Shown in pieces: positions 42,218 to 55,626 of a stretch of DNA of 64,000 nt. Each line of letters opens with the position of its first letter. Position 1 is the first letter of the stretch. The position numbers were made by a program, and so were the translations under genes. Under the pieces are notes generated by a model that was not told the origin of the DNA, made no database searches, and saw nothing but the letters and a program-made list of their open reading frames with translations. The DNA comes from Bacteroidia bacterium (lineage in GTDB: Bacteria > Bacteroidota > Bacteroidia > 2-12-FULL-35-15): NCBI GenBank assembly GCA_030654175.1, contig JAURXZ010000008.1, positions 115,426-179,425 on the forward strand, in the 5' to 3' direction.

Positions 42218-44008
42218 TTATGGTTTATAGGTTATAAATTGAAATGCATTTTGAATTTTAGTACCTACAGGGTCATATATAGTAACTGTAAGTTTTCCTG
42301 AACCATCATCATCCGTGGCGAATTTAACATTATTACCTATTGGTGTTACTATTGTTATATAATTTGAAGTTGTATAACTTTCAGATGCTATTGTGATCTT
42401 ATATCTGTTGTTTGATCCGCCATCCCAGGAAACTGTTATATTGCCGGTACTTGTATATACTACACCCGAAGAACTTATATTGCCGTAGGCAATTGGGACT
42501 AAGTTAGCTATTCCTGTTTGGGTTCTGTTCAACTCATTTGCATTAGTCCCTGCTATATTAATGGTACCATTCACCTCAAGTTTTGTTGTTGGAGCAACCG
42601 TTGTACCGATACCAACATTTCCATTTTGGTCAATACGCATTCTTTCAGTACCATTCATACTGCCGTTTGGAGTAGTCATGAATTTTAAATAAGATCCGTT
42701 GTTACCAAAGGAGAAGTTTTCAGAAGCAACTGCACCAATTTCTGTCTGATCATTGGTTGAAAAAACAGTACCATCATATCCGCTGAATTTGAGAAAACCA
42801 ATTTCATCACCTGAAGCAATAGCTAATGGTGAGGTTTCTGTCCCTTTTGCTTTTCTTAACCAGAGGTGAGAATCTGAAACTGAACTACTATTATATTCTG
42901 TTCCTACAATTCCATGCGGACCGTTCGAAGAGGTGCTCACCACTTCAAATTCTGCATCAGGAGTGGTAGTACCTATCCCTACTTTGCCTGTATTATTATT
43001 ATAAATATCATTACCGGAAGCAGTCCAAACACTATTAAATGTTGTTCCTGTTAAGGTTAAACCTGTGCCTGCAATATAGGAGGGAGATAGAGGTGTGGTC
43101 CAGGTTGCTAAACCGGTTGCATCAGAGGTTAATAATTTACCCAATCCCGGTGTGCCTCCTGTAATTTTTATTTGCCCGGCAATTTCCAACATCGCACCCG
43201 GGTTAGTTGTTCCAATACCTACATTTCCTCCGGATGGTTGTAAACTCATATTTCCATTGCTATAAACAGATAGCCTGGGTTCAAAAATACCACCTCTGAA
43301 AACTGTAAGATCAAACATGCTTTCGTTATTCGAAGTAGCACTTATGTTAAATGCTGTCCCTTCGTGTGTGCCGGTATTTAAATACAATGCCCTTGTTAGC
43401 GTATTGGTACCTGTTAATACTTCTAATTTATTTCCGGGGTTCATTGTTCCAATACCCACATTGCCTGTTGAATCAAGTACCATCCCAAGTGAATTGTTTG
43501 TTCTGAAGCGTAAGGGCGTGTTATTGGTTGTTCCTATAAAATCAGTTCCGCCACTGATATTGCCGATCAAAGACCAACTGTTGCTACTACTGTTTCCTGC
43601 TGTTTTGGCATACAAAGCGTAGGGCACACTCATCATTTGGATCCTTCCCATAGAAAGGTAATTGCTGCCACCAACGGTATCTACTTCTGTTTCTAAATAT
43701 TTATTTCCGGTTGCCCATGGAATTGAGGTAAAACTCGTGGTGCTGATGCTTCCAATCACCAATGTAAATAATCCATAACGGTTTGTATTTACAGAATTAT
43801 GTATTTCAGTGAATAGAGTTGCACCTCCTGTAATAGAATCCCAAATAGTAAATCGTACACTTAGGTTTACGCTATTGCTTATTGGTTTTCCACTGGTATC
43901 CCTCGCCACGGCCTGATAGTTAATGCCTTCAGGAGGAGCTTGAGCAAAAGAGAATACACTTATCAGCAGTAATATAAATGTGCCGATTGAAAAAAGTAAC
44001 TTTTTCAT
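42218..44008 (-). CDS. Fibre paralog A (596 aa): shared N domain plus tail-fibre-like GNVGIGT modules, no collagen
   Basis: Signal peptide SFA|Q; [14 protein letters not shown]...[14 protein letters not shown]; four G(N/K)VGIGT junctions; tip LVPIAYGNI...FQFITYKP. Confidence 0.88.
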   Translation of the reverse strand: MKKLLFSIGTFILLLISVFSFAQAPPEGINYQAVARDTSGKPISNSVNLSVRFTIWDSITGGATLFTEIHNSVNTNRYGLFTLVIGSISTTSFTSIPWATGNKYLETEVDTVGGSNYLSMGRIQMMSVPYALYAKTAGNSSSNSWSLIGNISGGTDFIGTTNNTPLRFRTNNSLGMVLDSTGNVGIGTMNPGNKLEVLTGTNTLTRALYLNTGTHEGTAFNISATSNNESMFDLTVFRGGIFEPRLSVYSNGNMSLQPSGGNVGIGTTNPGAMLEIAGQIKITGGTPGLGKLLTSDATGLATWTTPLSPSYIAGTGLTLTGTTFNSVWTASGNDIYNNNTGKVGIGTTTPDAEFEVVSTSSNGPHGIVGTEYNSSSVSDSHLWLRKAKGTETSPLAIASGDEIGFLKFSGYDGTVFSTNDQTEIGAVASENFSFGNNGSYLKFMTTPNGSMNGTERMRIDQNGNVGIGTTVAPTTKLEVNGTINIAGTNANELNRTQTGIANLVPIAYGNISSSGVVYTSTGNITVSWDGGSNNRYKITIASESYTTSNYITIVTPIGNNVKFATDDDGSGKLTVTIYDPVGTKIQNAFQFITYKP

Positions 44009-44214
44009 GATTGTGAGCTGAACGTTGCTAAGGTACTTTATAATGTTTAAACAATTAAATTCTTTTCGCAAATATTTTGAGCCGAAATTATCAATTGTTT
44101 GAAGAATAATAAGTAAACAAAAAAATTAATAAGTTTAAAAAATCGATATTCGTTTATTGCTAATTGGATGCGGCCTATTGCTGTTATTAAAAGAATGTGC
44201 TTTTATATGCATAA

Positions 44215-55000: not shown

Positions 55001-55626
55001 GCTGATCCTACTGAAACTCCACCGGCTACGTCCAATTTACTGAGAGGGGTAGAAGTGCCAATACCAACATTTCCTGCCGATTTTACGATCACTTTTTCGG
55101 TATTATTTGTTTTTATTAACAGGTCCGCAGAATTAGTGGTTCCGATAAAATCGGTTGGGCTGGTAATATTATTACCCGATACCGACCAATTACCATAAGA
55201 ATAAAGTGAAGTTTTTGAATGCAAAGCATAAGGCACGCTCATTAGTTGAGTTAAGCCCATCGAAGTATAGCTACTCCCACCAACAGTAGCCATTTCTACT
55301 TCTAAAAATTTATCACCGAGGGCCCAAATTATACTTTGGAAATCGGTGGTGTTAACACTTCCAATCACTAAGTTAAATAGGCCATAACGGTTTGTATTAA
55401 CCGGACTATGTGTTTCTGTAAAAAGGCTGGTTCCTGTTCCTGAATTATCAGGCCAGATGGTGAACCTTACCACCAGGTTGATGCTGCTGCTTATTGGTTT
55501 GCCGGCAGTATCACGAGCCACGGCCTGATAATTTATACCTTCTGGCGGAGCATATACTTGAGAAAAGGAGTTTATATTGATTAGCAAAAATATGAACGTG
55601 CTAATTGAAAAGAATAGTTTTTTCAT
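52087..55626 (-). CDS. Fibre paralog F: shared N domain, long tail-fibre-like shaft, C-terminal peptidase S74 intramolecular chaperone
   Basis: N domain; many GNVGIG units; CSDIRYKKDI (SD.R.K), IGFIAQDLE..YPEVV, SVDYSRLTPILVEAIKEQQ, terminal coiled coil. Confidence 0.92.
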   Translation of the reverse strand: MKKLFFSISTFIFLLININSFSQVYAPPEGINYQAVARDTAGKPISSSINLVVRFTIWPDNSGTGTSLFTETHSPVNTNRYGLFNLVIGSVNTTDFQSIIWALGDKFLEVEMATVGGSSYTSMGLTQLMSVPYALHSKTSLYSYGNWSVSGNNITSPTDFIGTTNSADLLIKTNNTEKVIVKSAGNVGIGTSTPLSKLDVAGGVSVGSAYSGITAAPTNGAIIEGTVGIGTSSPDPAAILDLSGQIKITGGNPGTNKVLTSDAAGLATWAIPDTGSVTSFSADSLAPLFTTTVSNATTAPALSFTLSDAAAYTVWGNNTGTSTTPAYFVPTLASSLFQNQGTTSTVLHGNATGNPAWGQIVNADITNASINLATKVSGMLPIVNGGTNTNTIGSAGSIPYSNTTGTAYGFSTVGTSGQVLTSGGTGTPTWTTPAAGTVTAVTGIAPIMSTNGTTPAISVATNSSTSDGVVTTGSGNLNMVWKTNGSGAPAWRNDSSATYTAGTGLTLSGTTFNSVWTQSANNIYNNNTSNVGIGNSVPTSKLHITPAGAVIGLTSSTLGTGSSGVFENFNASNSSSTLVGRTNGSGNAIFATNTGTWRAGTFTISNGANINDALYAETNGTGNAISGKNTSTGRAGSFQVLNAASTADGIEVTTNGSNSVGIEVAHTGATAGSIDYGTYVSNTGAGTTNVGGYYTATGATNNYAGIFDQGNVGIGTTAPSTQLHTTGGVRFQSLTGTGLRFILTDANGNLIPGIAPGAGGTLNYVAKFTPDGITLGNSSIFDTGTNVGIGTTTPTSQLQTIATGAKTADYSGAKFTNNATSASGTFTKAALELKSNGSWLGTNAANIGLYVSSVSGGTTNYDAIFNGGGNVGIGTTTPTSPLTIQTRVGNELEFVSTGSNANIHSNAQLDINSTTSLHLLTNGSTRLSVLTNGDVGIGTTAPALKLDVRGTNTKATTVAFENIFQVASTDAISPLTLRFGIKTDATASLRYGALEVVEGGSFKSLSLQPNGGNVGIGCIDPQYPLHVVGNMGVTGIIYATATALSLGVNSCSDIRYKKDITPLPSALSNVMKLNGVNYYWKTNEFPNKIFTNDKQIGFIAQDLEKIYPEVVFTDKDGYKSVDYSRLTPILVEAIKEQQKTIEAMQKQNDAMQKQNEEQHKTQRALIDSIQKEIELIKKK

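What the first reader, a model, noticed from the sequence alone, without database searches (positions are those of the whole stretch)
42218..55626. Tandem array of six secreted, trimeric phage-tail-fibre/collagen-like proteins with one shared N-terminal domain: candidate host-encoded mosaic adhesin system
Seen in sequence: six co-oriented genes over 13.4 kb. Each has a Sec/SPI signal peptide (Gln at +1) and the same ~120-aa domain (PPEGINYQA(V/L)ARD...YGLF.LVIG...W..G...LE.E...Q(M/L).SVPYAL). This is followed by GXT collagen (B-E) and/or G(N/K)VGIGT-punctuated shafts, and variable tips. F ends in a peptidase S74 chaperone (SD.R.K). There are no capsid, baseplate, terminase or integrase genes in the window. 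Established knowledge: collagen and S74 chaperones both imply homotrimeric fibres, and Bdellovibrio bacteriovorus uses chromosomal, phage-fibre-like mosaic adhesive trimer (MAT) proteins for prey recognition. Inference: this is a Bacteroidota counterpart, a repertoire of fibres with a common anchor and different receptor-binding tips for attaching to prey, hosts or particles. I recall MAT N-termini having a similar YQ...F...IG...SVP(Y/F)A pattern, but this is unverified.
Basis: partly seen in the sequence, partly recalled or inferred. Interest (0 to 1): 0.88.

Follow-up and report, generated by a model that had tools for sequence, protein, structure and literature searches.

The report
Six-gene array of MAT-type surface fibres
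Six neighbouring genes in an uncultured Bacteroidia bacterium encode phage-tail-fibre-like, three-chain fibres with one shared base domain and different tips; they belong to the "mosaic adhesive trimer" family described in the predator Bdellovibrio in 2024, so this is a rich new example of a known but barely studied kind.

Summary
Six intact minus-strand genes (42218-55626) each encode a signal peptide, the same ~116-aa N domain, a collagen and/or GNVGIGT-punctuated shaft, and a different tip. F ends in an S74 chaperone with SDIRYK.

All 95 tested N domains of this family, without signal peptides, hit NCBIfam NF053851 (Bdello_MAT_N) and no other family consistently, though below its curated cut-off.

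The flanks are housekeeping genes. The N domain is absent from 50,697 GenBank phages.

It is not a new system. Caulton et al. 2024 already list Bacteroidota ("FCB group") MATs, including a collagen-like one.

What is added here:
- The genome has 17 copies, the most among 15 congeners. The family has about 29,500 clusters and no Pfam model.
- The paralogues share shuffled modules, and the N domain is under purifying selection.
- A ~95%-identical strain has a replaced tip on fibre E.
- The tip of B models as a TNF/C1q-like jelly roll, like BclA.
- Eight of the 11 dispersed paralogues sit beside a mini T9SS-tagged protein. The array belongs to an N-domain clade that forms tandem arrays and lacks this partner.

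Surface display and adhesion remain inferred.

The parts
42218..44008 (-). Fibre A (596 aa): signal peptide, N domain, GNVGIGT-type shaft without collagen, ~128-aa beta-rich tip
   Evidence: ORF; start; NF053851 hit E 7e-9; tail-fibre PHROGs 9942 and 18345 on the shaft; tip has no PDB sequence match
44215..45171 (-). Fibre B (318 aa): signal peptide, N domain, 19 collagen triplets, TNF/C1q-like tip
   Evidence: Pfam Collagen; NF053851 E 3e-10; tip model and Foldseek
45448..48033 (-). Fibre C (861 aa): N domain, 30 collagen triplets, GNVGIGT shaft, ~200-aa tip
   Evidence: tip has no PDB sequence match
48162..49652 (-). Fibre D (496 aa): N domain, 21 collagen triplets, short shaft, tip distantly like that of E
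   Evidence: D369-495 matches E572-689 at 29% identity
49829..51904 (-). Fibre E (691 aa): N domain, 29 collagen triplets, shaft, Phage_depo_C beta-sandwich tip
   Evidence: tip replaced in strain variant L111
52087..55626 (-). Fibre F (1179 aa): N domain, long GNVGIGT shaft, S74 intramolecular chaperone, C-terminal coiled coil
   Evidence: Pfam Peptidase_S74 E 1e-16; PHROGs 5668 and 1980, tail fibre; NF053851 E 1.6e-5 by genome search; shaft weakly matches PDB 8ond 'bd2133' (E 0.0018) and 6f45
44755..45105 (-). N domain of B, representative of the shared base domain. The others are A 43595-43942, C 47608-47955, D 49239-49586, E 51488-51838, F 55204-55554.
   Evidence: Alignment A1; AF2 model with pLDDT 85, a six-strand beta sandwich; dN/dS 0.09-0.18 for the 13 of 15 pairs where dS could be estimated
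52294..52473 (-). S74 chaperone/protease core of F with catalytic Ser (codon 52471-52473) and Lys (SDIRYK)
44218..44583 (-). Tip of B: TNF/C1q-like jelly roll
   Evidence: AF2 pLDDT 75.5; Foldseek top hits are BclA C-terminal domain, 4-1BBL, TNF, C1q and ExsFA, TM 0.5-0.62
49859..50098 (-). Tip of E (Phage_depo_C-like beta sandwich), hypervariable between strains
   Evidence: Pfam E 4.5e-7; ~50% identity against 98-100% for the rest of the protein in L111

Best explanation
The six genes encode paralogous members of the mosaic adhesive trimer (MAT) fibre family.

Shown by tests here:
- Each protein is Sec-exported and begins, right after the signal peptide, with a ~116-aa beta-sandwich domain homologous to the Bdellovibrio MAT N domain.
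- This domain is followed by a shaft made of collagen triplets and/or phage-tail-fibre-like segments separated by GNVGIGT motifs.
- Each ends in a different tip: a TNF/C1q-like jelly roll in B, Phage_depo_C-like sandwiches in D and E, other beta domains in A and C, and an S74 self-cleaving chaperone in F.
- The N domain is kept by purifying selection.
- Shaft modules are shared between paralogues, and one tip has been replaced between two ~95%-identical strains.

Inferred:
- Each protein forms a homotrimer. Collagen, S74 and TNF/C1q folds are all obligate trimer formers.
- The constant N domain fixes the fibre to the cell envelope, and the tips bind different ligands. This would give the cell a repertoire of adhesins for particles, other cells or hosts.

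How the fibres cross the outer membrane is unknown. They have no T9SS tag, lipobox or barrel. Unlike 8 of the 11 other paralogues in this genome, they have no adjacent mini T9SS-tagged partner gene. They belong to an N-domain clade that occurs as partner-less tandem arrays.
For: Homology to MAT:
- NF053851 hits A-E.
- It hits 13 of the 17 copies in the genome and no other locus.
- It hits 95 of 95 signal-peptide-less N domains, best E 5e-14, with no other recurring family.
- The F shaft weakly matches Bd2133, PDB 8ond.

Family traits, compared with Caulton 2024:
- N domain directly after the signal peptide.
- S74 and non-S74 members.
- Diverse adhesin-type tips: Lcl_C, YadA_head, Big_1, Fibrinogen_C.
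- A multi-copy repertoire of 17.

Mosaicism: A182-278 matches C482-578 at 78%; A340-483 matches D245-388 at 65%; A282-356 matches F470-544 at 48%.

Selection: N-domain dN/dS is 0.09-0.18 for the 13 of 15 pairs where dS could be estimated, with dS from 0.2 to above 2.

Tip replacement: E in L111 is ~50% identical in the last ~110 aa and 98-100% elsewhere.

Trimer-type folds: Collagen and S74; B tip similar to BclA, TNF and C1q.

Not phage:
- Housekeeping flanks.
- No GenBank phage hit.
- Only 3 hits in 2.9 million IMG/VR contigs. The one examined is not a tail module.
- Synteny with SAM_HAT and PhoH in a relative.
Against: - All NF053851 scores (19-41 bits) are below the curated 60-bit cut-off and align only model positions ~2-107 of 162. 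Membership is at superfamily level, not the Bdellovibrio subfamily.
- No experiment or multimer model here shows trimerisation, surface exposure or ligand binding.
- No known outer-membrane export signal is present, so a periplasmic location is not excluded.
- In Bdellovibrio itself, MAT deletions do not clearly reduce predation, so even the reference family's role is not settled.
- The B tip model rests on only 6 sequences, and no Foldseek E-value is at or below 1e-3.
Confidence: 0.72

Rival explanations
1. The fibres form a passive surface coat, a hair-like nap like the BclA layer of Bacillus spores. It would set hydrophobicity, protect against grazers or phages, or aid gliding and aggregation, rather than act as a set of ligand-specific adhesins.
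For: - B has the BclA architecture (anchor domain, G-x-T collagen, C1q/TNF-like head), and BclA is its top structural match.
- Collagen stalks occur in most paralogues.
- MAT deletions give no clear phenotype in Bdellovibrio.
Against: - One tip has been replaced between near-identical strains.
- The family carries many lectin- or adhesin-type tips: Lcl_C, YadA_head, Fibrinogen_C.
- Both fit selection on binding specificity better than a uniform coat. Diversification to escape phages or grazers that target the coat would, however, look the same.
Confidence: 0.17
2. The proteins stay in the periplasm or on the inner face of the outer membrane, because they lack any recognised Bacteroidota surface-export signal. 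They would serve an envelope-structural role.
For: - No Por_Secre_tail or CHU_C domain, lipobox or barrel in any of the six, or in 106 family representatives.
- No partner gene in the window.
Against: - Bdellovibrio MATs with the homologous N domain and only a Sec signal are surface-exposed.
- Fibres of 300-1200 aa with lectin-like and phage receptor-binding-type tips, and tip replacement between strains, are hard to explain inside the periplasm.
- Other paralogues are linked to T9SS cargo and outer-membrane barrel genes.
Confidence: 0.07
3. The array is a remnant of a prophage, tailocin or contractile injection system whose tail-fibre genes were left behind.
For: Shafts, the S74 domain and the E tip match phage tail-fibre families. 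The N-domain model has weak fold similarity to small phage beta-sandwich proteins and minor tail proteins (TM 0.5-0.6).
Against: - No phage structural, integrase or sheath genes among the proteins scanned.
- N domain absent from 50,697 phage records.
- Every copy has a Sec signal peptide, which virion fibres lack.
- The locus is syntenic in relatives.
- 14 of 15 congeners and 27% of sampled Bacteroidota genomes carry the family.
Confidence: 0.03

Closest known systems
Mosaic adhesive trimer (MAT) fibres of Bdellovibrio bacteriovorus HD100 (Caulton et al. 2024, PMC10769870; NCBIfam NF053851 Bdello_MAT_N)
   Same: - Sec signal followed directly by a conserved beta-rich N domain, with detectable sequence homology.
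- Phage-fibre-like shafts.
- S74 and non-S74 members.
- Swappable tips, including TNF-like and C-type-lectin-like folds.
- A large paralogous repertoire: 21 there, 17 here.
- No PDB homologue of the N domain.
   Different: - Scores are below the curated subfamily cut-off.
- Collagen stalks are common here.
- Six genes lie in one tandem array.
- The host is an uncultured Bacteroidia bacterium with no evidence of predation.
- Many family members in Bacteroidota are paired with a mini T9SS cargo gene. Bdellovibrio, to my knowledge, lacks a T9SS.
- FCB-group members were only listed in a supplementary table, not studied.
BclA and related collagen-like exosporium hair proteins of Bacillus (PDB 1wck, 3twi)
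   Same: Fibre B shares the N-terminal attachment region, G-x-T collagen stalk and C1q/TNF-like trimeric head. BclA is the top structural match to the B tip.
   Different: No sequence homology of the N domain. BclA is assembled on spores of Gram-positive bacteria and has no Sec signal. There are no GNVGIGT shafts or S74 members.
Phage tail fibres and tailspikes with an S74 intramolecular chaperone (endosialidase K1F type; phage S16 long tail fibre, PDB 6f45)
   Same: F has the S74 domain with SDxxxK and a fibre shaft matching tail-fibre PHROGs.
   Different: F has a signal peptide and a cellular N domain in place of a virion-attachment end. The context is chromosomal and non-phage.
Legionella collagen-like adhesin Lcl (Pfam Lcl_C)
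   Same: Collagen stalk plus lectin-like C-terminal domain. Two dispersed paralogues here (in loci L101 and L104) carry Lcl_C.
   Different: Different N terminus and export route. None of the six array genes has Lcl_C.
Trimeric autotransporter adhesins (YadA type)
   Same: Modular trimeric surface fibres. Some members of this N-domain family carry YadA_head repeats.
   Different: No C-terminal membrane-anchor barrel. Here the constant domain is N-terminal.

Membership tests
MAT fibre family (Caulton 2024) | Conserved beta-rich ~130-aa N domain immediately after the signal peptide, homologous to that of the Bdellovibrio MATs | tested here: met
   NF053851 hits A-E at E 1e-8 to 1e-10 and F at 1.6e-5. 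It hits 95/95 N domains without signal peptide. The domain starts at residue ~22-26. The model is a six-strand beta sandwich.
MAT fibre family (NCBIfam naming rule) | Score at or above the curated cut-off of NF053851 (60 bits) | tested here: not met
   Best scores are 33-41 bits. The model is typed 'subfamily_domain' and is tuned to Bdellovibrio. The relation is therefore at superfamily level.
MAT fibre family | Homotrimeric fibre | not testable with these tools
   Only monomer prediction was available. Trimerisation is inferred from Collagen, S74 and the TNF/C1q-like tip.
MAT fibre family | Variable C-terminal tips, with S74 and non-S74 subgroups | tested here: met
   One S74 and five non-S74 members in the array, with at least four unrelated tip sequences. 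S74 is present in 9 of 106 family representatives.
MAT fibre family | Mosaic exchange of modules and tips among a multi-gene repertoire | tested here: met
   Shared modules at 48-78% identity in different positions. 17 copies in the genome. E tip replaced between strains.
MAT fibre family | Surface exposure and ligand (glycan) binding | not testable with these tools
   Needs experiments.
T9SS cargo proteins | C-terminal sorting domain (type A Por_Secre_tail or type B CHU_C) | tested here: not met
   None in A-F. The neighbouring 2606-aa protein and the small partner proteins do have one.
Prophage or tailocin tail-fibre module | Adjacent baseplate, tail, capsid, terminase or integrase genes; fibre N terminus shared with phages | tested here: not met
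   Housekeeping flanks. No phage carries the N domain.
Trimeric autotransporter adhesins | C-terminal YadA-type membrane anchor | tested here: not met
   No such Pfam hit in A-F.

The most novel reading that the evidence does not exclude
Bacteroidota MAT-type fibres may reach or hold on to the surface by two routes, distinguished by their N-domain clade.
- In the first route, the N domain docks onto, or travels with, a dedicated mini protein. This protein is a ~45-aa conserved module fused to a T9SS sorting domain, encoded next to the fibre gene.
- The second route is used by the tandem-array clade in this window. It needs no such partner and may be the same unknown T9SS-independent route used in Bdellovibrio.

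This one genome holds both kinds: 8 partnered copies, 6 array copies and 3 with an outer-membrane barrel neighbour. It is therefore a natural comparison that could identify the missing anchor or export step of the MAT family.
Probability: 0.3. Interest if true: 0.75.

Novelty: new member of a known kind. Interest (0 to 1): 0.5.

Why it matters
MAT fibres were described only in 2024. Their cell-surface anchor, export route and real biological role are still open.

This locus shows that the family is not a speciality of predators.
- The N domain defines about 29,500 protein clusters.
- It occurs in about a quarter of sampled Bacteroidota genomes.
- It has no Pfam model.
- It can expand to 17 copies in one free-living genome.

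The array gives clean evolutionary evidence: a conserved base, shuffled shafts, and a tip replaced between near-identical strains. This points to the tips as the specificity-determining part, as in phage receptor-binding proteins.

The contrast between partner-less array genes and T9SS-partnered paralogues in one genome gives a concrete handle on how such fibres are displayed. It also offers a possible source of modular, trimeric binding domains.

Tried and rejected
- Sigma-70 and TAnnTTTG promoter scans and the terminator scan over the array were no better than shuffles. I make no statement on transcription units.
- Rfam found nothing between 38.9 and 60 kb.
- I looked for a conserved neighbour of the array genes. 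There is no small T9SS partner in the window, even at E 10.
- The adjacent HAMP-PP2C sensor is one of ~46 SpoIIE genes in the genome. Two fibre loci lie near one, where I estimate about 1.7 by chance. Its orthologue lies on another contig than the array in at least one relative. I therefore rejected a regulatory link.
- PDB sequence searches with the N-domain profile and with the tips of A, B, C and E gave nothing significant.
- Foldseek of the N domain against PDB gave only generic Ig-like sandwiches with TM below 0.5. Against viral models it gave weak hits, TM 0.5-0.6.
- An exact look-up of protein B found no record.
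Full report
**1. Observation**

The region holds six intact, co-oriented minus-strand genes. With the MKK-type ATG starts, they are:
- A 42218-44008 (596 aa)
- B 44215-45171 (318 aa)
- C 45448-48033 (861 aa)
- D 48162-49652 (496 aa)
- E 49829-51904 (691 aa)
- F 52087-55626 (1179 aa)

The genes are separated by 107-276 bp.

Each protein starts with a typical signal peptide ending ..SFA/SYA/SFS before Gln, with no lipobox Cys. The same ~116-aa domain follows directly. It is 61-96% identical among the six, with 56 invariant columns.

Pfam finds Collagen in B-E, Phage_depo_C at the end of E and Peptidase_S74 in F. Collagen runs are 19, 30, 21 and 29 triplets, mostly G-x-T. GxVGIG motifs punctuate the shafts of A, C, D, E and F. 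F carries S1052-D-I-R-Y-K1057.

**2. Not a prophage**

Downstream of the array lie a SAM hydroxide adenosyltransferase and PhoH. Upstream lie a HAMP-SpoIIE phosphatase, a TPR protein, YfiR, a FemAB-like protein and DUF885.

The rest of the window that I scanned is housekeeping: M23 peptidase, MazG, PagL, sulfatase, a T9SS plug protein, SulP, Lgt, two signal peptidases I and a carboxyltransferase.

The neighbouring 2606-aa protein is a T9SS cargo with 17 GBD_T9SS_assoc repeats and a Por_Secre_tail. The organism therefore uses the T9SS, but the fibres carry no such tag.

PHROGs match the shafts, S74 and tips to tail-fibre families but do not cover the N domain. A tblastn search of the N domain against 50,697 GenBank phage records found nothing. 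A scan of 2.9 million IMG/VR contigs found three loci. The one I examined sits among an IS1595 transposase, a methylase fragment and a TIR gene, not a tail module.

**3. Relation to MAT fibres**

NCBIfam model NF053851 (Bdello_MAT_N, "mosaic adhesive trimer family chimeric fiber protein") hits A-E at E 1e-8 to 1e-10. In the whole genome it hits 13 loci. All of them are N-domain genes, including F. It hits nothing in 14 control genomes.

To exclude a signal-peptide artefact, I scanned 95 N domains cut at the mature Gln: 15 from this genome and 80 from other Bacteroidota. All 95 hit NF053851 (best E 5e-14), and no other family recurred.

Scores (19-41 bits) stay below the curated 60-bit cut-off, and alignments cover model positions ~2-107 of 162. 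I therefore read this as superfamily-level homology.

The reference paper gives these traits for the family:
- 21 MATs, of which 13 have S74 and 8 do not.
- A conserved beta-rich ~130-aa domain right after the signal peptide.
- No PDB homologue of that domain.
- Swappable tips.

My AF2 model of the N domain (95-sequence alignment, pLDDT 85) is a six-strand beta sandwich. It has no convincing PDB match by fold or sequence. It shows only weak similarity to small phage beta-sandwich proteins. The F shaft weakly matches the solved Bd2133 fragment (8ond, E 0.0018).

**4. Already in the literature**

Supplementary Table S3 of Caulton et al. 2024 lists MATs from the FCB group:
- a Saprospiraceae protein of 704 aa with a "collagen-like" tip
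- Salinivirga
- Kordia algicida
- a strain printed in the held text as "Patiriosisocius marinistellae"
- Dokdonia

Later reviews add nothing on Bacteroidota. What is missing in print is any analysis of these proteins.

**5. Size and spread of the family**

- This 5.1-Mb genome has 17 N-domain genes: the six here plus 11 dispersed, three of them cut by contig ends.
- 14 of 15 same-genus genomes have the domain, with 0-12 copies. This genome has the most.
- In an even sample of the phylum, 80 of 301 genomes and 49 of 144 genera have it, mostly in 1-5 copies (that search scored at most 15 candidates per genome).
- A profile search of 1.84 billion representatives found 29,505 clusters at E ≤ 1e-3 and 11,880 at E ≤ 1e-30. 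In the 150 best matches listed, the domain starts at residue ~9-47, i.e. at the N terminus.
- No Pfam model covers it.
- Among 106 representatives, Pfam finds Collagen (30), S74 (9), Lcl_C (9), YadA_head (4), Big_1 (4), Fibrinogen_C, End_tail_spike and others. No T9SS sorting domain appears among the 25 families listed, of 35 matched.
- The other paralogues here are mostly collagen-stalked. Two have Lcl_C tips.

**6. Evolution within the array**

- Modules recur in different places. A182-278 matches C482-578 at 78%. A340-483 matches D245-388 at 65%. A1-306 matches F1-272 at 54%. A282-356 matches F470-544 at 48%. The D and E tips are distantly related.
- N-domain dN/dS is 0.09-0.18 for the 13 of 15 pairs where dS could be estimated, with dS from 0.2 (A/B) to saturation. 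These are old paralogues whose base is conserved by selection, not by recent copying.
- A metagenomic contig from a close strain (L111) carries E-D-C-B in the same order at ~95% nucleotide identity.
- Its proteins are mostly 98-100% identical, with lower identity in the collagen stalk of B (72-90%). The exception is the last ~110 residues of E, directly after the final GNVGIGT. These are ~50% identical and were not aligned by BLASTN at E ≤ 1e-20. This is a tip replacement at a module junction.

**7. Tips**

The B tip has only five detectable relatives. In two of them the domain occurs as tandem repeats.

Its AF2 model (six-sequence alignment, pLDDT 75.5) matches TNF/C1q-type jelly rolls: the BclA C-terminal domain, 4-1BBL, TNF, TL1A, Cbln1 and ExsFA. 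TM is 0.5-0.62 and E is about 1e-3. This fits an obligate trimer and parallels the TNF-like tips of Bd2439 and Bd2734. The tips of A, C and E have no PDB sequence match.

**8. Export and anchoring**

None of the six has a T9SS tag, lipobox or barrel. While mapping the neighbourhoods of the dispersed paralogues, I found a small gene next to most of them. This was before I consulted earlier notes.

The small gene encodes:
- a signal peptide
- a ~45-aa conserved module (..SGG...G..(S/D)(Y/F)T(V/I)G(E/Q)....(T/A)(Q/E)G(F/V)QQP)
- a T9SS sorting domain of type A or type B

The genome has nine such genes. Eight lie 0-917 bp from a fibre gene. In other Bacteroidota, 23 of 46 fibre genes with both flanks readable have one on the same strand.

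The QLRGINYQ-type paralogues also have a small OMP_b-brl gene upstream. By N-terminal sequence, PorP/SprF-like genes appear to sit near the type-B partners; I did not scan these against Pfam.

The window contains no partner.

On a tree of 95 N domains, partner presence is clustered: 17 changes against 29.8 in shuffles, with 0 of 500 shuffles as low. A-F fall in one clade (SH-aLRT 98) with four relatives; none of the nine assessable members has a partner, and one relative could not be assessed. Three of these four relatives are visibly tandem arrays, and one of them lies next to SAM_HAT and PhoH as here.

Earlier notes of this scan report the same fibre-plus-mini-T9SS pairing in other genomes. 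I treat that as agreement, not support.

Bdellovibrio MATs are surface-exposed. To my knowledge Bdellovibrio has no T9SS. A partner-independent route therefore plausibly exists, and the array clade may use it. This is inference.

**9. Verdict**

The array is a genuine, intact, chromosomal set of MAT-superfamily fibres. The most likely function is surface display of trimeric adhesins with different specificities.

The shown steps are homology, architecture, mosaicism, selection and non-phage context. The inferred steps are trimerisation, surface location and ligand binding. Nothing indicates predation.

The main rival is a BclA-like passive coat.

Novelty: a new member of a known kind. It has useful added points: repertoire size, strain-level tip replacement, and a partner-less array clade beside T9SS-partnered paralogues.

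Noticed in passing
G000 paralogue loci: L098:5491-5970(+), L101:7339-7818(-), L104:7867-8352(-), L103:10417-10914(-), L106:9797-10366(-), L102:11216-11743(-), L099:8569-9102(+); also G000:C27:544208-544714: Mini secreted proteins of 160-190 aa lie directly beside fibre genes. Each has a ~45-aa conserved module plus a T9SS type A or type B sorting domain. Eight of the nine copies in the genome are adjacent to a fibre gene, and half of assessable fibre genes in other Bacteroidota have one. The module has no Pfam or NCBIfam family.
   Followed up: yes
L102:10562-11206(-), L105:5074-5733(+), L103:1814-3175(-): Genes sit just upstream of the QLRGINYQ-type fibre paralogues. The first two match Pfam OMP_b-brl (a small outer-membrane beta-barrel); the third looks similar at its N terminus only and was not scanned. 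They are candidate envelope anchors.
   Followed up: partly
window 41757-41843: A perfect heptamer repeat CAACCAA x12.4 lies in the spacer between the SAM_HAT gene and a small ORF (about 41843-42127, +). From its sequence alone I guessed the ORF to be ABM-like. The repeat lies ~370 bp downstream of the stop codon of fibre A and could be a slippage-prone element.
   Followed up: no
window 31169-38989 (-): A 2606-aa T9SS cargo protein has 17 GBD_T9SS_assoc repeats plus PPC and Por_Secre_tail domains. It lies 3.2 kb from the array, beyond PhoH and SAM_HAT.
   Followed up: partly
G000:C18:98807-99815 and G000:C35 end (L100:10203-14879): A fibre gene runs off contig C18 in a ...NYINVDSLFANY... repeat, and the same repeat opens the end of contig C35. 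The two contigs probably join into one ~1900-aa fibre gene, in tandem with the 1365-aa fibre on C35.
   Followed up: no
P0001 (916 aa, from the representatives search): One protein has six tandem copies of the N domain in a single chain. This architecture is unlike the usual single N-terminal copy.
   Followed up: no
P0153, P0154: The tip domain of fibre B also occurs as two or three tandem repeats in proteins that do not begin with the N domain; one of the two sequences is truncated at its N terminus. The domain is therefore a portable module.
   Followed up: partly
L023 (labelled Bifidobacteriaceae MAG) and L068 (labelled Akkermansia MAG): Both carry the Bacteroidota-type partner-plus-fibre cassette. 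Mis-binning or mislabelling is more likely than real transfer.
   Followed up: no
window 56076-59441 (-): A YfiR, TPR and HAMP-PP2C unit lies next to the array. PP2C sensors number about 46 in this genome. Adjacency to fibre loci is no more frequent than I estimate by chance, and is not conserved in at least one relative.
   Followed up: partly
window 22447-25308 (+) and 9646-11010 (+): Two signal peptidase I genes lie in tandem, the first fused to DUF5684. A T9SS plug-domain gene is also in the same window.
   Followed up: no
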